A program made the position numbers and the translations under genes. The notes beneath the pieces were generated by a model, which saw only the letters and a list, made by a program, of their open reading frames with translations, had not been told where the DNA came from and did no database searches. From positions 576,001 through 640,000 of the forward strand of contig BK006943.2 in the NCBI GenBank assembly GCA_000146045.2: a DNA stretch of 64,000 bases, written 5' to 3'. Below are positions 22,735-42,042 of this stretch, piece by piece; the stretch's first letter is position 1; each line of letters begins with the position of its first letter. The stretch comes from TPA_inf: Saccharomyces. Taxonomy: Eukaryota.

Positions 22735-25700
22735 ATGCACGACGCAGAGAGTACCGTAGATTCTCTACTGAAGGAGATAGACAATGAAATGGAACAAACA
22801 AAGTCTAATATCACGCAAAATGGTTCCGAAGATACACCACACAACTGGAAGCTTCCGCTGCAGGAAATAGGCGATGATACCATGGAAATGTTGGTCAAAC
22901 ACAATACTAGGTCGAATGCTACAGAAAATAGTAGAGGTCGATCACCTTCTAAGATGTCTACCATCTCAAATGAAAGCCTTAATTTGGGTCTCTTACGTGT
23001 AAATTCGGAACTTGAAGAGTCTCCAGCCGCTGTGCATCAGGAACGGATTAAAAACTCTGTTGCCAACGGGGCACTTGGTCATGCCAATTCTCCCAAAGTG
23101 CTTAATAATCTGAAAAATATGGCACAAGATATAGATAAACTAGCCCGTGATGAGGAAAAGCCCGTAAAACTTAGCAGCTCTCCCCTTAAATTTACTTTGA
23201 AATCGACTCAACCACTGCTGTCGTATCCAGAATCGCCCATCCACAGAAGTTCTATTGAAATTGAAACGAATTACGATGACGAAGATGAAGAGGAAGAAGA
23301 TGCATACACATGTTTAACACAGTCACCTCAAATATTACACTCTCCATCAAGGATTCCAATAACTAACGCAGTGTCGATTAATAAGCTCAATCTTGATTTC
23401 ACATTGAATCCCAACGAATCAGACAAAAGTCTAGTATCTGACACCTCAGTTGATAGCACAGGACGAGAACTAGATACGAAAACAATCCCAGAATTACCAT
23501 TTTGTATGTCATCAACGCCCGAAATGACGCCAGTCGATGAGAAATGTAACCTTCCAAGTAAATTGTTGAACACTAGTAACAATTCACATTCTGATTCAAG
23601 ATCGCCAACAGCCTCTGTGGAGGATTTAAACATTTCAACGAATCTGCCGGGTGCTGATTCCAGCCAAAATAATCCAGTCACTACTGATGCGGATGCGCTT
23701 ATTGAAAACGATGTTGTGCGGGACCTTCAACAGAATATGGAACATATCGATGATGCTTTTGATGAGAAAAAAGTTCTTGACGAAGGTTGCAGCAATGAGC
23801 CCGTTACCTTTTTGGGTGAAAATGACACTAGGTCCATAGTATACTCTAATAAAGGGACCAATGCTAATGTTCAAGAATTTTCACAGGAAGATTCTCTAGC
23901 GCACAGTGAACCCAAATTCAAAGATCTTAATGCTACATCGGATGACGTATGGAATGAAGACAAAGAAACAGACGCAAATATTTCAACATCTACAAAGTCA
24001 GAGGAAAGCTACATTGCTGACTATAAAGTAACGAGACAAGAAGACTGGGATACCAAAAAGCTTCATCAAGAAAGTGAACATGCAAATGAACAACCGGCAA
24101 TAATTCCTCAAAAGGATTCTTCAGAAGAAACATTCACTGAACTAAATAATGAAAGTGAATTCCAAAGGAACTTTAAGGATGGAGAGGAATACCGAATCGT
24201 TCAACACGAGGAGAGCCTGTATGGACAAAGAACAAAGAGTCCAGAAGAAAATATAATAAATGGCAGTGAAATTGGTGTCGACCATGGAGAGGCCGCTGAA
24301 GTGAATGAACCATTGGCAAAAACTTCTGCAGAAGAACATGATCTTTCATCATCATGTGAAGATCAGTCGGTGAGCGAGGCTCGTAATAAAGACAGAATTG
24401 AAGAGAAGGAAGTTGAAACTAAGGATGAGAACATTGAAACCGAGAAAGATGAAAGTGAGTACCATAAAGTCGAAGAAAATGAAGAGCCGGAACACGTTCC
24501 CCTCTTACCACCCCTGCCAAGATGGGAAGAAATTCAATTCAACGAGCCATTTATAGATGAAAATGATACCTCCAATGATTCCATCGATTTAACCAGATCC
24601 ATGAAACCATCAGATTACATTTCTATATGGCATATCCAAGAAGAGGAAATCAAATCCAATTCACCAGAATCCATTGCCAACTCCCAATTTTCACAACAAT
24701 CCTCGATTACCACTGCATCTACGGTCGATTCTAAGAAGGATAATGGATCAACTTCGTTCAAATTCAAACCTAGAATAGTGAGCAGGAGTAGGATTTACAA
24801 TCCAAAAAGCAGAGTATCCTCATTGAATTACTACGATAATGAAGATTACATTTTAAGCAACAGTGAATGGAATGCACTCGACCCTATGAGAAGAAATACA
24901 CTCATCTCTAAAAGGATTCAAGATAACATAAGAACTCAAAAGGGTCACGCTCCACTTATTAGGCCAAGCATCATGAAACTTAATGGCGAAGATTCTGGTT
25001 TTCAGAATCATTTCTTGGAGGTAGAACAACCGCAAGAACACGAAAATATCCCATTAAGTACGCACCTAAGCGAACAAGATATCACAACAAATGTAGGCCT
25101 CGATGAACAGAAATTACCAACCAATACCCAGGACGAAGCTGAAATTTCCATTCGGGAAATAGAGAGTGCGGGTGATATCACTTTTAATAGGGGCGATTTA
25201 CTATCTTTATCCTTTGATGAGGAATTGGGTCAGGATTTTGCTAATTTTCTAGACGCTTTGGATCATGACTCCACATCTTTCAATCATGGGCCGGATGATT
25301 CATCCAGTTTTCAAAGAGACAGTTCAAAGAAAAGCTTCAATTCTCTTTGGGAAAGCAGTTACGAACTAAAACCGCCACCTTCCATAAGAAAGCAACCTAT
25401 TGCCCCCGACGTCCTGCAAAAATTATTAGAATCAGATACTAAAGATGACGCAGATTTGGAAAAAATTAGAGAAGAGCGTATAACTGAACCAAGGACTGGT
25501 TTGGGGATTGGAATGCTGAAAACACCAGTTAAGGATGTTTCAATTGCGCTAGCTGCAAGCATTAAAGGATATGAGGCAAGTTTCAGCGATACTGACTCTC
25601 GTCCAGAGGGCATGAATAATAGTGATGCCATCACTTTGAACATGTTCGACGATTTCGAAGAAGATAAAATGACCCCTTCCACTCCAGTTCGTAGTATAAG

Positions 25701-27078
25701 TCCAATAAAACGGCATGTTAGCAGTCCTTTCAAGGTCGTGAAAGCTGGAAACAAACAAGAGAATAATGAAATAAACATTAAGGCTGAAGAGGAAATAGAG
25801 CCAATGACGCAGCAAGAAACCGATGGTTTGAAACAAGATATTCCTCCACTGCTAGCGCAGACAAAAGATAACGTCGAAGCAAAAGAAGAAACGATAACTC
25901 AACTTGAAGAACCACAAGACGTTGAACAAGAATTTCCGGATATGGGAACACTTTATTTAAGTATAAAGGCTATTTCCACGCTTGCATTATATGGAACTAA
26001 GAGTCATAGAGCAACATATGCTATTGTTTTTGACAATGGGGAAAATGTCGTTCAGACACCCTGGGAGTCGCTTCCGTATGACGGTAACATCAGGATCAAT
26101 AAGGAATTTGAATTGCCCATAGATTTTAAAGGAAAAGCCGAAACATCCTCCGCTTCTTCTGAAAGAGATAGCTACAAAAAATGTGTTATCACATTAAAAT
26201 GTAAATATGAAAAACCTCGACATGAATTGGTCGAAATAGTAGACAAGGTGCCGGTGGGTAAGAGTTTTTTTGGAAAGACAAAGTATAAATTTGAAAAGAA
26301 GTATGTACAGAAAAAACCTAAACAAGATGAGTGGGATTATCTATTTGCACAAGACGGTTCATTTGCTCGTTGTGAAATTGAAATTAATGAAGAGTTTTTG
26401 AAAAACGTGGCATTTAATACCAGTCATATGCATTACAATATGATTAACAAGTGGAGTAGAATCGCAGACAAAATTCACGGCTCAAAAAGGCTGTACGAGT
26501 TACCACGCAAGGCGCCTCACAAAGTGGCTTCGTTGGATGTGGAAGCATGTTTCTTAGAAAGAACTTCTGCCTTTGAACAATTTCCCAAACAATTTTCATT
26601 GGTCAATAAGATTGTTTCCAAATACAAGTTGCAACAAAATATCTATAAAGAAGGGTATTTATTGCAGGATGGTGGTGATCTGAAAGGAAAGATAGAAAAC
26701 AGGTTTTTCAAACTGCACGGCTCGCAACTTTCTGGTTATCATGAAATCTCTAGAAAGGCTAAGATCGATATTAATCTGTTGAAAGTCACGAAAGTCCTAC
26801 GTAATGAAGACATCCAGGCGGATAATGGAGGGCAAAGGAATTTTACAGATTGGGTACTCTTTAATGAATGCTTCCAGCTAGTATTTGACGATGGTGAAAG
26901 AATTACTTTCAACGCGGAATGCTCTAATGAGGAAAAAAGTGATTGGTACAATAAGCTCCAGGAAGTTGTTGAGTTGAATGTTTTCCATCAACCCTGGGTG
27001 AAAAAGTATTGTGAAAAGTTAGCTGAGGAGGAAAAGACTCGAACAACCGGTCATAATTTGAAGCAAGATTTTAATTAG
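22735..27078 (+). CDS. BUD4: Anillin-like bud-site-selection protein (septin-ring landmark; C-terminal PH domain), 1447 aa
   Basis: ATG ORF MHDAESTVDSLLKEIDNEMEQTKSNITQNGSED... Size and order match YJR092W. Confidence 0.9.
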   Translation: MHDAESTVDSLLKEIDNEMEQTKSNITQNGSEDTPHNWKLPLQEIGDDTMEMLVKHNTRSNATENSRGRSPSKMSTISNESLNLGLLRVNSELEESPAAVHQERIKNSVANGALGHANSPKVLNNLKNMAQDIDKLARDEEKPVKLSSSPLKFTLKSTQPLLSYPESPIHRSSIEIETNYDDEDEEEEDAYTCLTQSPQILHSPSRIPITNAVSINKLNLDFTLNPNESDKSLVSDTSVDSTGRELDTKTIPELPFCMSSTPEMTPVDEKCNLPSKLLNTSNNSHSDSRSPTASVEDLNISTNLPGADSSQNNPVTTDADALIENDVVRDLQQNMEHIDDAFDEKKVLDEGCSNEPVTFLGENDTRSIVYSNKGTNANVQEFSQEDSLAHSEPKFKDLNATSDDVWNEDKETDANISTSTKSEESYIADYKVTRQEDWDTKKLHQESEHANEQPAIIPQKDSSEETFTELNNESEFQRNFKDGEEYRIVQHEESLYGQRTKSPEENIINGSEIGVDHGEAAEVNEPLAKTSAEEHDLSSSCEDQSVSEARNKDRIEEKEVETKDENIETEKDESEYHKVEENEEPEHVPLLPPLPRWEEIQFNEPFIDENDTSNDSIDLTRSMKPSDYISIWHIQEEEIKSNSPESIANSQFSQQSSITTASTVDSKKDNGSTSFKFKPRIVSRSRIYNPKSRVSSLNYYDNEDYILSNSEWNALDPMRRNTLISKRIQDNIRTQKGHAPLIRPSIMKLNGEDSGFQNHFLEVEQPQEHENIPLSTHLSEQDITTNVGLDEQKLPTNTQDEAEISIREIESAGDITFNRGDLLSLSFDEELGQDFANFLDALDHDSTSFNHGPDDSSSFQRDSSKKSFNSLWESSYELKPPPSIRKQPIAPDVLQKLLESDTKDDADLEKIREERITEPRTGLGIGMLKTPVKDVSIALAASIKGYEASFSDTDSRPEGMNNSDAITLNMFDDFEEDKMTPSTPVRSISPIKRHVSSPFKVVKAGNKQENNEINIKAEEEIEPMTQQETDGLKQDIPPLLAQTKDNVEAKEETITQLEEPQDVEQEFPDMGTLYLSIKAISTLALYGTKSHRATYAIVFDNGENVVQTPWESLPYDGNIRINKEFELPIDFKGKAETSSASSERDSYKKCVITLKCKYEKPRHELVEIVDKVPVGKSFFGKTKYKFEKKYVQKKPKQDEWDYLFAQDGSFARCEIEINEEFLKNVAFNTSHMHYNMINKWSRIADKIHGSKRLYELPRKAPHKVASLDVEACFLERTSAFEQFPKQFSLVNKIVSKYKLQQNIYKEGYLLQDGGDLKGKIENRFFKLHGSQLSGYHEISRKAKIDINLLKVTKVLRNEDIQADNGGQRNFTDWVLFNECFQLVFDDGERITFNAECSNEEKSDWYNKLQEVVELNVFHQPWVKKYCEKLAEEEKTRTTGHNLKQDFN

Positions 27079-28568: not shown

Positions 28569-29651
28569 TTAAGAATAGGTTTTACTAAACTTGTAGGATA
28601 TTTCTTGAAACCTGACCTTGTCATAATAATCTTGATCATTAGAACTGCTGAAGGAGTAAGCCGCAGCATATCTTGACAGTTTGGAGTTCAACTTTTTTAG
28701 GAATTCTAACTCTTTTGAATTTAATTTTTGTAGTGATGGCGGTGGTGATTTTTCAACGTCGAAGGCAATTTCTAATGGGTAATAGTAGGAGGGCACCTGA
28801 GGTTCATCTATAAATGGATCTGCCTCATATACATTATCGGAGGCGTTGTTATTATTGCTGGTATTATTATAGTAATTACAATTAGTGCTTTTATGGTTGC
28901 TATAGTGACGATTATTAAAGGAATGTATGTTATCAGTATGTGGTGGAAACTGATCTTGATATTGGGAGTATGAATCCGTGTTTTTTGAATTTATTGATTC
29001 ATGAATATTTGTGGGTTTTGAATAGGTATAATTAGTGGTATATGGGTAGAAGTCTTGTGTGTATGGGAATTCATTGAATTCAAAATTTTCTTGGAATATT
29101 TTGATATCTTTTTGTGCATTTGTATTAGTTTCATATTTTATTGTGTCACTAATATCGATATCATCTCCATTTCTGTTGCTCTTTTGAAAGTTATCATGGT
29201 TATTGAATGATGAGTGGAACGTAGATGCGGATTCATCATTAGAAAAAAGAGATGATAATGAAGAGGATCTGGTACTTTCAGAGCTCTTTTTTCCTCTTTC
29301 AGGACCAGTTGCCATTGTGCAGTCCTTCGTAGTTTTCGTTTCCTTGGAAATAGGCTGAGAATCAATATTTTCCAAATTCAGAAACTCTTCATTGAACAAT
29401 ATTTGAGGATTAATTAAATGAATTGGTTGTGTATGAACCAAGTTCTGCAGCTGAGATGAGGCAATTTTGTCAGACTTTTCAAAATGCCAACTTCTAGGGG
29501 AAATTGTAGATCCAAAAGAAAAACAAGGACGGTCTTCTTGATCGGTGGTTGTGTCATAATAAATGTTAGGTTGTTGTTGCTGTTCAAAAGGAAAGAGGAA
29601 GAAACCATCTTCTAAGGCAGCGTGAAGTTTTCCATGCATATCCGCTTGCAT
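28569..29651 (-). CDS. IME1: Master transcriptional activator of meiosis, 360 aa
   Basis: ATG ORF MQADMHGKLHAALEDGFFLFPFEQQQQPNIYYDTTTDQEDRPCFSFG... followed upstream (29652-~32300) by an unusually long gene-free regulatory region. Confidence 0.9.
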   Translation of the reverse strand: MQADMHGKLHAALEDGFFLFPFEQQQQPNIYYDTTTDQEDRPCFSFGSTISPRSWHFEKSDKIASSQLQNLVHTQPIHLINPQILFNEEFLNLENIDSQPISKETKTTKDCTMATGPERGKKSSESTRSSSLSSLFSNDESASTFHSSFNNHDNFQKSNRNGDDIDISDTIKYETNTNAQKDIKIFQENFEFNEFPYTQDFYPYTTNYTYSKPTNIHESINSKNTDSYSQYQDQFPPHTDNIHSFNNRHYSNHKSTNCNYYNNTSNNNNASDNVYEADPFIDEPQVPSYYYPLEIAFDVEKSPPPSLQKLNSKELEFLKKLNSKLSRYAAAYSFSSSNDQDYYDKVRFQEISYKFSKTYS

Positions 29652-30407
29652 TTTGTTTGTGGGGAGAGGAATAGAAAAGCTTTTCTTTTATTATTTTTTT
29701 CCTTTTTCACCAGTAATGGGTGCCAGTAGGAATTTGTTTCTCTGTAGGTGACTAATGACAGTAGTATATTATGCTTTTAATCTTTAACAATACTACTGGT
29801 CGATTTATAATATGATAATGTAAAATAAATCGTAATAGGATAGTCGATGTTTGTATCTACTTCACGAAACAGTTATGGTATACGGTAGTTTAAATATCTG
29901 AAGAAGCAAAAATACCGAACTACAAGGGAAGCATTTTGAGAAAAATATTAAGATCAAAAGATAATTAATTTACCTTAAATACATAAAAGAGGAAAAGTAA
30001 TATACAAGGTAAACAACAGGCAAGGAACAAGATCAAAAACGTCCGACCCCAATTTAGTAGTAAATTACAGTAAGAGAAAAAGGTATTGGGGCTGATACAT
30101 ATTAATTGTGCGTTGTTGTTGTTGTTTAATTTTAGATTGGCTATTATGAGTACACACAAAACGTTGTAAACGCAATCACCCATGGATAAGCGCTCCCTTT
30201 AAAATGCACTACGAAATCATTGATCTACTAACTTTAAACCGGACTTAAACCATCAAAGGGTGCTCTAGATCTCATCGATGTATTCTGATGCAGCCAAAAT
30301 TGCGCAATCAATCACGTTTCCCGATATAGAAAACTAATTGGCTGTGTTACGTGGCTGGGGGTTCTGTAATTCCTTTCTTCCCCGGTGAATCATCAAGATT
30401 GGGCTAA

Positions 30408-30439
30408 GCGCCTTTGATCCTTTCCCTCGAAGACGGAAA
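30408..30439. promoter_or_regulatory. 32-bp IRE-type element, proximal copy (IREd-like), about -770 from the IME1 ATG
   Basis: gcgcctttgatcctttccctcgaagacggaaa is a 30/32 direct repeat of 30773-30804. Confidence 0.5.
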
Positions 30440-30772
30440 TGGGGCCGCAGGATAAAAAATGGTGTGTCTGTAATTCCGATTTTTTGCTTATGTAATCATG
30501 TAACTTTCTTCTAGTCCCTTTGCAGACATGCATGACACTTCCTTACCCGAATAGTGAGTTAGATCTGTGTTAGGATGCAGGATGGGCAGTTCAAAGGCTT
30601 TTCTTATCGTATCTTTACCTTTTCCTGTAACTAAGAAGGTTTTTGAGTGCATGTAAAGGCACATAAATGAAACTTTAATTCCCTGCGTATTTAAGACCCA
30701 AGAAGCCACCATGACGCTTCCTTGATGTTGTATCTACCCCCAATCCTGGCGCCCCCTCCTGCGGGCACGCAT

Positions 30773-30804
30773 GCGCCTTTGATCCTTCCCCTCGAAGACG
30801 AAAA
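30773..30804. promoter_or_regulatory. 32-bp IRE-type element, distal copy (IREu-like, contains STRE CCCCT), about -1137 from the IME1 ATG. A further CCCCCT lies at 30752-30757
   Basis: gcgcctttgatccttcccctcgaagacgaaaa. Position matches the published IREu (-1153..-1122) from memory. Confidence 0.5.
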
Positions 30805-31598
30805 GTAAACAAAGATACGCACTTTTTTTCTCCAACGCAGTATTGAAGGTACCATCACATGCTTACTCACTTTGCGGCTGCTATAACACCGTGGCAGTGT
30901 AACGTTTTACCGTTTGTCCTTTGCTACCGCATTTTAAAGTGGTACAAGATGTTGAGAGAAAAGATTTCCTGCAGCCATGATTAGGAGAGGTAATAGCGGA
31001 TGACATCAACGAATAAGCTTTATCCAGCGGCTTGTATAGTTCTGTGTACACAATTACTGCCGGGCTCTCTGAGCATTTGCGTTTCTCGGGCTAGCTTCAT
31101 TACTTAGTAACTTCAAATTAATGAAATATTTAATTATCATGATTCCAAACAAAACTACTTTAATTTCAATCACATTTTTGTTATCTGCCTGAAACGATAG
31201 CTGTACGGGTACGTTCTTGATAAATAAAACTCAGTGTTTAAAACTCTCTTTTTACATCTGTTCGCCGATGATTGCTTGCTCGGAGGTACTAGTCATCGGA
31301 ATTGAGGAAATTCCTTTTCTCCTTTGTTTTCTCTTTATCCCCGCGTAAATACGCGGAATGCCAATAATCAAGTACACATTCTTTCTCCAAGTTGGCCAAA
31401 AAATAGTTCAAATTCTTTAAACTAAGCGCTATTAATTATTATTAATTATATAAGTTTGAAAATATCAATGCAGGACCCTATTTCTTCACGAGGGTGTATC
31501 CAGAAACGGTTTCTTATATAGTGTTGGCGCTCACTTTTTTCCTACCCACGTCTATATATGCAACGCCTACTTGTTTTAATCAACATCACAATTTTATG

Positions 31599-31610
31599 CT
31601 TTTGAGGTAC
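31599..31610 (-). promoter_or_regulatory. Rme1 response element (minus-strand GTACCTCAAAAG), about -1950 from the IME1 ATG
   Basis: Plus strand cttttgaggtac. Matches the Rme1 consensus GWACCTCAARA. Confidence 0.55.
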
Positions 31611-31680
31611 AGCAGTTAGCCGTACGTTTTCGGCAGTCGCTAAAAATGTAAGCGCGGCATTTACTGCCATTTAGTGGACT

Positions 31681-31691
31681 TCTTGAGGTTC
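31681..31691 (-). promoter_or_regulatory. Second Rme1 response element (minus-strand GAACCTCAAGA), about -2035 from the IME1 ATG
   Basis: Plus strand tcttgaggttc. Lies 70 bp from the first site, the same spacing as the known paired RREs. Confidence 0.55.
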
Positions 31692-31995
31692 TTTTGACAT
31701 CCGCATTCTTGCAGCAAATACACCCCCACCCTTCTTTTATTGAGAATATCTACTGAACCTCCGTGAGGGAATACATTAATCAAATTACTCCAACACCATA
31801 CGGGCCGTGGCGGAAAGAACAGCATGATATAGATAATATATGATATGAATTGATTTTTTTTTCTTTTTTTCTTGCGGCTGGTATGGTATTGTAAGGATGA
31901 TAGTGCATTCTATGAGTGATTTTTGTGACGGTGACGTACGATCTCTATACCTTTTTAGCCGCCCATCTTCTGCCTTTCATTTTTATGCCAACCCT

Positions 31996-32304: not shown

Positions 32305-32858
32305 ATGTATGCATATAATAGAGGAATTGGATGACTAAATGTTCTTATATTGGAGTTAGTGGAGATGCGTGGTAGATTTGAATTAAATAGAAAGTGCTGG
32401 GGTTGATAAACCACGAAATATCGCAGTTGAGGAGAATGATAAGCCAGGATAGATGGTAGCGCATTTTTGGGGCAATCTCACTGTAGGTCCACCACAACTC
32501 AATATGACTACATCGAATCAGTTATAAGGCAAGTTTTTAGTTTACTAACAAATATTTCCATCTTATTTTTTTTTTTTGCAGGGCTAAGAGAACAAAGAAG
32601 GTCGGTATCACAGGTAAATACGGTGTCCGTTATGGTTCATCATTGAGAAGACAAGTTAAGAAGCTTGAAATTCAACAACATGCCAGATATGACTGTTCCT
32701 TCTGTGGTAAGAAGACTGTTAAGAGAGGTGCAGCTGGTATTTGGACTTGTTCCTGTTGTAAGAAGACCGTTGCCGGTGGTGCTTATACTGTTTCTACTGC
32801 AGCTGCCGCTACTGTTAGATCTACCATCAGAAGATTAAGAGAAATGGTTGAAGCTTAA
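32305..32858 (+). CDS. RPL43B: Ribosomal protein L43 (eL43), 92 aa, two exons: 32305-32306 (AT) and 32582-32858. Intron 32307-32581 with GTATGC 5'SS, TACTAAC branch point at 32544-32550 and CAG 3'SS
   Basis: Exon 2 encodes (M)[69 protein letters not shown]...REMVEA. The only way to restore ATG-GCT-AAG is AT + G|GCTAAG across a 275-nt intron. The intron has a consensus branch point 31 nt before the 3'SS. Confidence 0.85.
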
Positions 32859-33772
32859 ACTTCTTTCATTCATTTTCTCTTGGCTTTCACTAGGTATATC
32901 TATTCCATAACGACTATGTTTTGTATTTGTTAATTTACATAAAACCATATCAGTACATCAACGAACTGTAAAAAAGAAACTTTAGCATAATTATTGCGGA
33001 TATTTAAACTCACTTGCAGGTAAGAGCAAAAGGCGATTGATTTCCAGTCCGCCTCTTGTCACGTGATTTAGTAAGAAATTTTGACAGCACCCTCGGTTTA
33101 ATGGAAAAGAGGGGCGTTTTTCGATGAACCCGAGGGGAGACTAGAGAATCATCTCGGTTGAATGGAGCATTATTTTTTTAGTAGCGCCCGCCCGGAGAAA
33201 TGGACGTTGGCGAATGAGCCATGAATTATTAACCGCCCATGTCTACCAGATACCACATCGTATGACAGTACCAGCCTAGTCCCGGTAAACCGCAAACGGA
33301 CCTTAATTGTGACGAAGGGCCCAAATTTGATGGGTCGGTGTTAATGATTAGTCCTCATTGTCATAATAAAGTGTGATGATGGAGGCAATGATGATATACG
33401 GTAGTACTACTGCTCGAGGTGCTATCTTTTAACCAATCCTTTGAGATTCTTGTCGCCACGGAGTTACTACCTTTTACAAACCGTAATGTCACATTTTGCA
33501 TATATCTTATGTATAAATATATAGTTCACTTACTACTTGTTCTCGTTTTGTTAACTTTCTTGTTGTAGTTCTTCTTGTTCTTGGCGTTTCCCCCTTTGTT
33601 TTCTATCTGCTTCATAAGTAAAGTGCAAAGCATTTTGGAAGATATTATCAATTGAGTCATTGAAAGAAACTTGGCATCTTCCCTATTACTAAAACTAAGA
33701 ATACTTGATTCAAGAAAGAAGTTTATATTAGTTTTAGCCGTAAGATAACATAACAAAGAAGAAGAAAGAAAA

Positions 33773-41334: not shown

Positions 41335-41919
41335 GTCGGTGTTATCCTTTATGTTTGACCTTTAATCTTCTTTTGTTTTGTCTTTTTTCATTTCGTACTT
41401 TTCAAATCCTTATTGCCGGTAGGCTTACAAACTTGAATGAAGTATATAACGAAGTCAATGAAACCTCTCCCATACTAGGTTCGGAACCTGTTAAGGGGAA
41501 CAAGACCGCGCACTTGTTATGAAAATTCTTCCTATAACTATATTGAAAGCTATTTTTCCACATCGGCAGACAAACGACTGTCCAGACTTAGTAAAGCTCT
41601 TGGTCGATTTTGTACATTGCCTTTCCTTTACAGCTCCAAGATATTATATATATTTTTGACAAGGTAATCAATTGCCCCACAAATCTTCCATATAAAAACC
41701 TATATATGCTATTAACCGAATGGCAATTCCCTCTATCTCATATCTCACCTCTACAGTAATCCTTCCGTGGTATCTGGTCTATAGAAATGGGTACTGTTTC
41801 ATTTAAACGTGTTATCACTTGATCCAATGGTTACCATCTGACTTTGGCATCAATCCCTTCTTAAAAAGTAACCAATCAATGATATGCGATTGTTTATGAA
41901 GTCCATTCAACAAACAATG

Positions 41920-42019
41920 GGAGTTTGGCCGAGTGGTTTAAGGCGTCAGATTTAGGTGGATTTAACCTCTAAAATCTCTGATATCTTCGGATGCAAGGGT
42001 TCGAATCCCTTAGCTCTCA
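41920..42019 (+). tRNA. tL(UAG)J: tRNA-Leu (anticodon UAG) with a 19-nt intron (41957-41975) immediately 3' of anticodon position 37; mature length 81 nt
   Basis: GGAGTTTGGCCGAGTGGTTTAAGGCGTCAGATTTAGG[tggatttaacctctaaaat]CTCTGATATCTTCGGATGCAAGGGTTCGAATCCCTTAGCTCTCA. Anticodon stem TCAGA/TCTGA forms only after intron removal. Long variable arm. B-box GGTTCGAATCC. Followed by a T-run. Confidence 0.9.
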
Positions 42020-42042
42020 TTATTTTTTGTATTTTTTTTTTT
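42020..42042 (+). terminator. RNA polymerase III terminator (T6 then T11) directly after the tRNA-Leu
   Basis: ttattttttgtattttttttttt immediately 3' of the discriminator base. Confidence 0.6.

What the first reader, a model, noticed from the sequence alone, without database searches (positions are those of the whole stretch)
29652..31700. IME1 upstream control region: paired Rme1 sites, two 32-bp IRE repeats with STREs, and the expected path of lncRNA IRT1
IME1 is preceded by >2 kb without protein-coding genes. Within it I can read two Rme1-consensus elements 70 bp apart on the IME1 strand (GTACCTCAAAAG at -1950; GAACCTCAAGA at -2035). There is a 30/32-bp direct repeat (30408-30439 and 30773-30804). 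The distal copy and its flank carry STRE motifs (CCCCT). These match the recalled positions of RRE1/2 and IREd/IREu. The interval between the Rme1 sites and roughly -600 is where the haploid-specific lncRNA IRT1 is transcribed to repress IME1 in cis. The repeats would then lie inside IRT1, so transcription would run through the factor-binding sites.
Basis: partly seen in the sequence, partly recalled or inferred. Interest (0 to 1): 0.5.

Follow-up and report, generated by a model that had tools for sequence, protein, structure and literature searches.

The report
Known IME1 meiosis promoter control region

Summary
The ORF at 28569-29651(-) is exactly S288C Ime1. Two Rme1-consensus sites sit at -1959/-1949 and -2040/-2030. 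A 30/32 direct repeat lies at -788/-757 and -1153/-1122. The only two CCCCT motifs of the intergenic region lie in and beside the distal copy. The motifs are not chance, and both Rme1 cores are conserved in seven Saccharomyces lineages.

One correction: the SUT643/IRT1 annotation runs from -1769 to -281, not to about -600. Verdict: already known, low interest.

Comparison with 6 other lineages and 30 other S. cerevisiae assemblies added one point. IREd is the ancestral element. IREu is a derived patch copied from it over a genus-conserved motif, and it is still polymorphic: 20 repeat alleles, 10 ancestral, and one 365-bp deletion exactly between the repeats. The lack of an STRE in this window's IREd is a G-to-A allele at -772. 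I found no report of this, but the key older papers were not readable.

The parts
28569..29651 (-). IME1 coding sequence (360 aa)
   Evidence: Translation is identical to IME1_YEAST / S288C Ime1. Synteny RPL43B-IME1-FIP1-BUD4 holds in 6 other Saccharomyces lineages.
29973..29981 (-). TATTTAAGG (-330..-322), likely the IME1 TATA element (inferred)
   Evidence: TATTTAA is invariant in 7 lineages. The sporulation GWAS promoter variant A-325C falls inside it (bioRxiv 2020.02.08.939314). The SUT643 3' end at -281 lies just downstream.
29932..31420 (-). IRT1 lncRNA as annotated (SUT643), -281..-1769, same direction as IME1
   Evidence: Coordinates chrX 605932-607420(-) and deletion-primer arms from the PMC5864082 supplement map to window 29887-29932 and 31421-31465. 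SUT643 = IRT1 per PMC5142380 and PMC9680404.
30408..30439 (-). Proximal 32-bp repeat (IREd, -788..-757), the ancestral element
   Evidence: Its core TTCGAGGGGAA..CAAAGGC is recognisable in six of the seven lineages, clearly in S. cerevisiae, both S. paradoxus lineages and S. kudriavzevii, more diverged in S. uvarum and S. eubayanus, and not in S. arboricola. It lies at the edge of the Tup1 peak at -800..-1000.
30423..30423 (-). Polymorphic base -772 in IREd: A here (no STRE), G in most strains and in four of the six other lineages (STRE AGGGG)
   Evidence: A in 9 and G in 21 of the 30 S. cerevisiae promoters that keep a separate IREd. S. paradoxus L001, S. kudriavzevii, S. uvarum and S. eubayanus have G.
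30773..30804 (-). Distal 32-bp repeat (IREu, -1153..-1122), a derived copy of IREd carrying an STRE
   Evidence: All six other lineages have CTCGGAGTTTAAGAAAAC-type sequence here. Ten of 31 S. cerevisiae promoters keep that ancestral form.
30788..30792 (-). STRE (AGGGG on the IME1 strand) inside IREu
   Evidence: IREu recruits Msn2/4 and, through them, Ime1 (PMC3866184).
30753..30757 (-). Second STRE, 16 bp promoter-proximal of IREu (-1106..-1102)
   Evidence: Conserved in both S. paradoxus lineages only.
30451..30651 (.). Tup1-Cyc8 binding peak (-800..-1000), between the two repeats
   Evidence: ChIP positions reported in PMC4894626 and PMC7210989 (-600..-1200). Not tested here.
30849..31021 (.). 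UASru (-1198..-1370)
   Evidence: Coordinates stated in PMC3827324.
31513..31521 (-). CTATATAAG (-1870..-1862), likely the IRT1 TATA box (inferred)
   Evidence: TATATA is invariant in 7 lineages. It lies about 80 bp downstream of the proximal Rme1 site and about 95 bp upstream of the SUT643 5' end.
31600..31610 (-). Proximal Rme1 site GTACCTCAAAA (-1959..-1949)
   Evidence: The ACCTCAA core is conserved in 7 lineages.
31681..31691 (-). Distal Rme1 site GAACCTCAAGA (-2040..-2030)
   Evidence: The core is conserved in 7 lineages at about 80-bp spacing. Primer FW1087 of PMC7816125 covers it.
31450..31875 (-). IRT2 lncRNA (approximate: about 400 nt, starting about 90 bp downstream of the Ume6 site and running over the Rme1 sites)
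   Evidence: Description in PMC5823921 and PMC7816125. The ends are my estimate, not measured.
31956..31965 (-). Ume6 site / URS1 TGGGCGGCTA (-2314..-2305) in the IRT2 promoter
   Evidence: The position equals the published -2314. GGCGGCTA is conserved in 6 of 7 lineages.

Best explanation
This is the upstream regulatory region of Saccharomyces cerevisiae IME1 (chrX, S288C-type sequence). It works as published. In cells with one mating type, the zinc-finger protein Rme1 binds the two sites at about -1950 and -2035. It activates a co-directional promoter (conserved TATA at -1870..-1862) that makes the lncRNA IRT1. IRT1 transcription runs from about -1770 to about -280. It crosses UASru, both 32-bp IRE copies, the STREs and the Tup1-Cyc8 zone, and ends near the IME1 TATA-like element. 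That transcription displaces activators such as Pog1 and deposits Set2/Set3-dependent repressive chromatin, so IME1 stays off. In a/alpha diploids RME1 is repressed. Ime1 tethered by Ume6 at the URS1 at -2314 drives IRT2 across the Rme1 sites and blocks residual IRT1. Nutrient signals act on the region between and around the repeats: Msn2/4 and Sok2 at IREu, and several factors that recruit Tup1-Cyc8 at -600..-1200. What is shown here: the identity of the locus, the positions, non-randomness and conservation of the motifs, and their agreement with published coordinates. What is taken from the literature: binding, transcription and chromatin effects. What is inferred: the two TATA assignments.
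For: Exact Ime1 protein. Rme1 motifs unique in the window and fitting the consensus. Both cores, their spacing, the URS1 and two TATA-like elements conserved across the genus. Repeat far above chance. SUT643/IRT1 coordinates enclose both repeats. The Ume6 site at exactly -2314. UASru and Tup1 coordinates fit around the repeats. The mechanism is stated in PMC5383673, PMC5823921, PMC7816125, PMC7210989, PMC3857879, PMC7470944 and PMC9680404.
Against: No binding or transcription was measured here. The original mapping papers for the RRE and IRE elements, and van Werven 2012, could not be read. The element names and coordinates for IREu/IREd and RRE1/2 therefore rest on my memory plus indirect support. 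SUT643 ends come from tiling arrays, and TES-seq shows several IRT1 3' ends. Most mechanistic work used strain SK1, whose IRE alleles I could not check.
Confidence: 0.93

Rival explanations
1. Rme1 bound at about -2 kb represses IME1 directly at a distance by excluding activators, without needing IRT1 transcription. This is the pre-2012 model.
For: Reviews note that Rme1 binds the IME1 promoter and that its mode of action was unresolved for two decades (PMC3857879; PMC9680404). Sequence alone cannot tell the two models apart.
Against: Published work summarised attributes repression to IRT1 transcription acting in cis. Terminator insertions in IRT1 and IRT2 change the outcome. A genus-conserved TATA box sits about 80 bp downstream of the Rme1 sites in the IME1 direction, as expected if Rme1 acts as an activator of a local promoter.
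Confidence: 0.04
2. The duplicated state of the 32-bp element has no function of its own. IREd is the ancestral functional element, and IREu is a neutral, recent templated patch that happens to carry a working STRE.
For: All six other lineages lack the repeat. Ten of 31 S. cerevisiae promoters lack it, including all the early-branching haplotypes. Those strains still keep a conserved sequence at the site, so the repeat is dispensable for a working IME1 promoter.
Against: IREu is reported to have Msn2/4- and Sok2-dependent activity and to recruit Ime1, Rpd3 and Sin3 (PMC3866184; PMC3827324). The patch overwrote a motif conserved across the genus, so it is unlikely to be without any effect. The derived allele is common in the sample.
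Confidence: 0.3
3. The motifs and the repeat are chance matches in an AT-rich intergenic region.
For: CCCCT is not enriched in the window, with 49 found against 71 expected. A third GWACCWCAADA match lies inside the 22735-27078 ORF.
Against: Shuffle controls. Conservation of both Rme1 cores in seven lineages, within a region where only 28% of columns are invariant overall.
Confidence: 0.01

Closest known systems
S. cerevisiae IME1 promoter with the IRT1/IRT2 lncRNA circuit (van Werven 2012; Moretto 2018, 2021)
   Same: It is this locus: the same gene, the same coordinates for SUT643/IRT1, the Ume6 site at -2314, Rme1 sites upstream of the IRT1 start, and the Tup1 zone at -600..-1200.
   Different: Nothing in kind. 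The window carries the S288C-type alleles (repeat allele at IREu, A at -772 in IREd), whereas most mechanistic work used SK1.
IREu/IREd, UASru and the UCS elements of the Kassir laboratory map (Sagee 1998; Shenhar and Kassir 2001; Kahana 2010)
   Same: A 32-bp element in two copies with two mismatches. The distal copy holds an STRE. UASru lies immediately upstream.
   Different: Element coordinates were compared from memory only. The comparison here adds that IREu is a derived, polymorphic copy of IREd, and that the missing STRE in IREd is an allele rather than a fixed feature.
SRG1-SER3 type tandem transcriptional interference
   Same: An upstream co-directional noncoding transcript runs across the promoter of a protein-coding gene and keeps it off through nucleosome occupancy (PMC7470944).
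   Different: IME1 repression needs Set2 and Set3, whereas SRG1-SER3 does not. The IME1 promoter is much longer and has a second lncRNA layer, IRT2.

Membership tests
IME1 upstream control region of S. cerevisiae | The downstream ORF is IME1, in the syntenic context RPL43B / IME1 / FIP1 | tested here: met
   Exact match to IME1_YEAST. RPL43B at 32305. Fip1 and L37ae Pfam families flank IME1 in the orthologous loci.
IME1 upstream control region of S. cerevisiae | Two Rme1 sites fitting GWACCWCAADA about 2 kb upstream, on the IME1 strand | tested here: met
   31600-31610 and 31681-31691. Consensus from PMC7718266. Conserved in 7 lineages.
IME1 upstream control region of S. cerevisiae | A 32-bp IRE in two copies at -1153..-1122 and -788..-757, with the distal copy carrying an STRE | tested here: met
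   Sequence features confirmed. The published coordinates are recalled, not read, because the papers were not held.
IME1 upstream control region of S. cerevisiae | Ume6 site at -2314 upstream of IRT2 | tested here: met
   TGGGCGGCTA at 31956-31965, or -2314..-2305.
IME1 upstream control region of S. cerevisiae | Rme1, Msn2/4, Sok2, Tup1 and Ume6 actually occupy these sites | not testable with these tools
   Taken from published ChIP.
lncRNA transcriptional interference (IRT1) | An annotated sense transcript that covers the regulatory elements of the downstream gene | tested here: met
   SUT643 maps to window 29932-31420 and encloses both IRE copies, the STREs, UASru and the Tup1 zone.
lncRNA transcriptional interference (IRT1) | The transcript is haploid-specific, Rme1-dependent and acts in cis | not testable with these tools
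   Literature only.
lncRNA transcriptional interference (IRT1) | A core promoter between the activator sites and the transcript 5' end | tested here: met
   CTATATAAG at -1870..-1862, with TATATA invariant in 7 lineages. Its assignment to IRT1 is inferred.

The most novel reading that the evidence does not exclude
IREu is not an ancient paired element. It is a short templated patch of about 16-20 changed bases, bounded by 8-nt and 4-nt microhomologies and copied from IREd by ectopic gene conversion or replication template switching within the S. cerevisiae lineage. It overwrote a motif conserved across the genus and placed an Msn2/4 STRE 365 bp further upstream, inside the IRT1-transcribed and Tup1-controlled zone. 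It still segregates alongside the ancestral allele. It has also created a recombination substrate that has already produced a natural 365-bp deletion, which removes the Tup1-Cyc8 and activation zone. Together with the -772 G/A STRE polymorphism in IREd, these alleles would contribute to natural variation in IME1 induction and sporulation. They would also mean that the textbook IREu properties describe one allele class only.
Probability: 0.35. Interest if true: 0.45.

Novelty: already known. Interest (0 to 1): 0.15.

Why it matters
The finding itself adds nothing new: it re-identifies one of the best-studied yeast promoters. It is useful as a positive control, showing that a reader can recover real regulatory architecture from raw sequence. 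The by-product may matter to people who study IME1 regulation or natural variation in sporulation. IME1 is the top GWAS locus for sporulation, and complex multi-base variants inside repeats are easily missed by SNP callers. Three structural alleles affect experimentally defined elements: the repeat versus the ancestral IREu site, STRE presence in IREd, and a 365-bp inter-repeat deletion. They could be tested directly by allele swaps.

Tried and rejected
(1) I tried to read the primary mapping papers: van Werven 2012 (PMC3472370), Sagee 1998 (PMC121428), Shimizu 1998 (PMC147578), Kahana 2010 (PMC2975282), Shenhar and Kassir 2001 (PMC86706) and Rubinstein 2007 (PMC1851052). None is held.
(2) A full-text search for the Rme1 site sequences returned only unrelated primer lists. 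A search on IREu/IREd/RRE1 was swamped by unrelated terms. Only two held papers contain the word IREu, and neither discusses variation.
(3) Several reviews and papers give no numeric IRT1 ends. The ends came from a deletion-collection supplement instead.
(4) I considered a hidden small gene in the 2.65-kb gap and rejected it, because there is no ORF of 80 aa or more.
(5) I considered S. paradoxus introgression as the source of the ancestral-type IREu allele in some S. cerevisiae strains and rejected it. Their flanks are S. cerevisiae-type and lack the 10-bp S. paradoxus insertion next to the site.
(6) Rfam found nothing in the region.
(7) No S. mikatae or S. jurei orthologue was recovered. Locus L002 turned out to be a second S. 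paradoxus lineage, with 94% promoter identity to L001.

Full report
**Observation.** The minus-strand ORF at 28569-29651 encodes a 360-aa protein identical to S288C Ime1 (IME1_YEAST). With the A of its ATG at 29651, position -N is window 29651+N. The next gene upstream is the divergent, intron-containing RPL43B. Its exon 1 is 'AT' at 32305-32306, the intron runs from 32307 to 32581, and exon 2 starts at 32582. The gap is 2,653 bp and holds no ORF of 80 aa or more.

On the IME1 strand, GTACCTCAAAA lies at 31600-31610 and GAACCTCAAGA at 31681-31691. These are the only two matches to GWACCTCAARA in 64 kb, against 0.06 expected. Both fit the S. cerevisiae Rme1 consensus GWACCWCAADA as quoted in PMC7718266.

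The direct repeat at 30408-30439 and 30773-30804 is 30/32 identical. In 300 dinucleotide-preserving shuffles of the intergenic region, the best 32-mer pair reached 24/32. The only two CCCCT motifs between IME1 and RPL43B are at 30788-30792, inside the distal copy, and at 30753-30757, in its flank. The motif count is not enriched, so only the placement is informative.

**Anchoring to published maps.** The window is offset from chrX by 576,000. A deletion-collection supplement lists SUT643 as chrX 605932-607420, minus strand. Its two homology arms map to window 29887-29932 and 31421-31465, and the RPL43B ATG falls at 608305. SUT643 is IRT1, so annotated IRT1 is window 29932-31420, or -281..-1769.

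Both repeats lie inside it, at -788..-757 and -1153..-1122. So do both STREs, UASru at -1198..-1370 and the Tup1-Cyc8 peak, given as -800..-1000 and -600..-1200.

Moretto 2018 places a Ume6 site at -2314, about 90 bp upstream of IRT2. The window has TGGGCGGCTA at exactly -2314..-2305. The MNase qPCR scanning primers listed for the IRT2 region in Moretto 2021 overlap both motifs, and that study's figure legend marks the Rme1 binding sites within the scanned region.

- The annotated IRT1 3' end is near -281 rather than -600. [quoted passage not shown]
- IRT2, its Ume6 site and Tup1-Cyc8 were left out.
- I could compare the IRE and RRE element coordinates only with my own memory of Sagee 1998 and Shimizu 1998, because those papers are not held.

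**Mechanism (from the literature, not measured here).**
- In single-mating-type cells, Rme1 activates IRT1.
- IRT1 transcription through the promoter evicts Pog1, raises nucleosome occupancy and sets Set2/Set3-dependent repressive chromatin.
- In diploids, Ime1 acting through Ume6 drives IRT2 over the Rme1 sites and shuts off residual IRT1. Low-level IRT2 in haploids instead helps Rme1 to bind.
- Nutrient control acts through Msn2/4 and Sok2 at IREu and through several factors that recruit Tup1-Cyc8.

**Comparative test.** I fetched the orthologous promoters of two S. paradoxus lineages and of S. kudriavzevii, S. arboricola, S. uvarum and S. eubayanus. Only 28% of S. cerevisiae columns are invariant across the seven sequences. 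Even so, several elements are conserved:
- both Rme1 cores (ACCTCAA), about 80 bp apart on the same strand, in all seven;
- the URS1 GGCGGCTA in six of seven;
- CTATATAAG at -1870..-1862, with TATATA invariant. It lies between the Rme1 sites and the IRT1 5' end and is most simply read as the IRT1 TATA box;
- TATTTAA at -330..-324, which is invariant. The sporulation GWAS promoter variant A-325C falls within it, which fits an IME1 TATA element.

Both TATA assignments are inferences.

**What the comparison adds.** The proximal repeat (IREd) is recognisable in six of the seven lineages; S. arboricola has diverged at the site. It carries an intact STRE (AGGGG) in one S. paradoxus lineage, S. kudriavzevii, S. 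uvarum and S. eubayanus.

At the IREu position, all six other lineages share a different conserved sequence, CTCGGAGTTTAAGAAAAC. Within each of those lineages the two sites align at only 16-21 identical positions, against 30/32 in this window. The repeat is therefore derived on the S. cerevisiae branch. A stretch of about 16-20 bases was overwritten with IREd sequence, between the microhomologies CGTCTTCG and GCGC.

The repeat is also not fixed. I scored 31 S. cerevisiae promoters: this window plus 30 public assemblies reached through five Ime1 protein variants. This is a non-random sample and includes some duplicate assemblies. The IREu-site alleles were as follows:

| IREu-site allele | Promoters |
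|---|---|
| Exact 32-bp repeat | 17 |
| Repeat with a longer copied tract | 2 |
| Repeat with a 1-bp deletion | 1 |
| Ancestral non-repeat sequence on S. cerevisiae-type flanks | 10 |
| 365-bp deletion exactly between the repeats, leaving one fused copy (GCA_949125895.1) | 1 |

In a neighbour-joining tree rooted on S. paradoxus, the earliest-branching S. cerevisiae haplotypes are all ancestral and the repeat alleles are nested among later ones.

Position -772 in IREd is A in this window and in 8 other promoters. It is G, which gives an intact STRE, in 21 promoters and in four of the six other lineages. In those strains the repeat is 31/32 identical.

The 365-bp deletion removes the Tup1 peak and the -800..-850 segment that is needed for IME1 activation. 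I predict, but have not shown, an IME1 regulation defect in that strain.

Only two papers in the held library contain the word IREu, and neither discusses variation. I cannot exclude that these observations are already reported in papers I could not read.

**Verdict.** The system is already known in detail, so interest is low. The derived and polymorphic status of IREu is a modest, testable by-product.

Noticed in passing
window 30773-30804; loci L001-L006 and L007-L038: The IREu copy of the 32-bp repeat is derived and polymorphic. Six other Saccharomyces lineages and 10 of 31 S. cerevisiae promoters have CTCGGAGTTTA(A/G)GAAAAC-type sequence at this site instead. Two assemblies (L018, L020) have a longer copied tract and one (L021) has a 1-bp deletion in IREu.
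   Followed up: yes
L013 (GCA_949125895.1), equivalent to window 30436-30800: A natural 365-bp deletion lies exactly between the two repeats (-1149..-785) and leaves one fused 32-mer. It removes the Tup1-Cyc8 peak and moves the Rme1 sites to -1675/-1594.
   Followed up: partly
window 30423 (-772): A G/A polymorphism in IREd. The window has A, which destroys the STRE that four of the six other lineages and 21 of the 30 S. cerevisiae promoters with a separate IREd carry.
   Followed up: partly
L015 (GCA_000978015.2), equivalent to window 31602: The proximal Rme1 site reads GTACCTCAGAA, an A-to-G change at consensus position 9. This is a natural variant that may weaken Rme1 binding. L014 and L015 also lack an exact GGCGGCTA URS1.
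   Followed up: no
window 31513-31521 and 29973-29981: Two TATA-like elements have cores invariant across seven lineages. CTATATAAG at -1870..-1862 is the likely IRT1 TATA. TATTTAAGG at -330..-322 is the likely IME1 TATA, and the published sporulation GWAS variant A-325C falls inside it.
   Followed up: partly
window 31798-31811 (-2160..-2147): GCCACGGCCCGTAT is a largely conserved block inside IRT2, between the Ume6 site and the Rme1 sites. It is intact in five of the seven lineages and diverged in S. uvarum and S. eubayanus. It has a CGG/CCG-type inverted core, and no factor has been assigned to it.
   Followed up: no
window 25909-25919 (+): A third match to the loose Rme1 consensus (GAACCACAAGA) lies inside the 1,447-aa ORF at 22735-27078, which I take to be BUD4 from memory. 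It is probably chance.
   Followed up: no
window 41918-42020 (+): A tRNA-Leu(UAG) gene with a 19-nt intron. Rfam and ARAGORN in intron mode find it, but the default ARAGORN run misses it.
   Followed up: partly
window 32305-32860 (+): RPL43B has a 2-nt first exon (AT) followed by a 275-nt intron with the unusual 5' splice site GTATGC and the branch point TACTAAC.
   Followed up: partly
window 30300-30900: G+C rises to 0.44-0.51 over the segment that holds both repeats and the Tup1 zone, against about 0.30-0.37 in the flanks.
   Followed up: no
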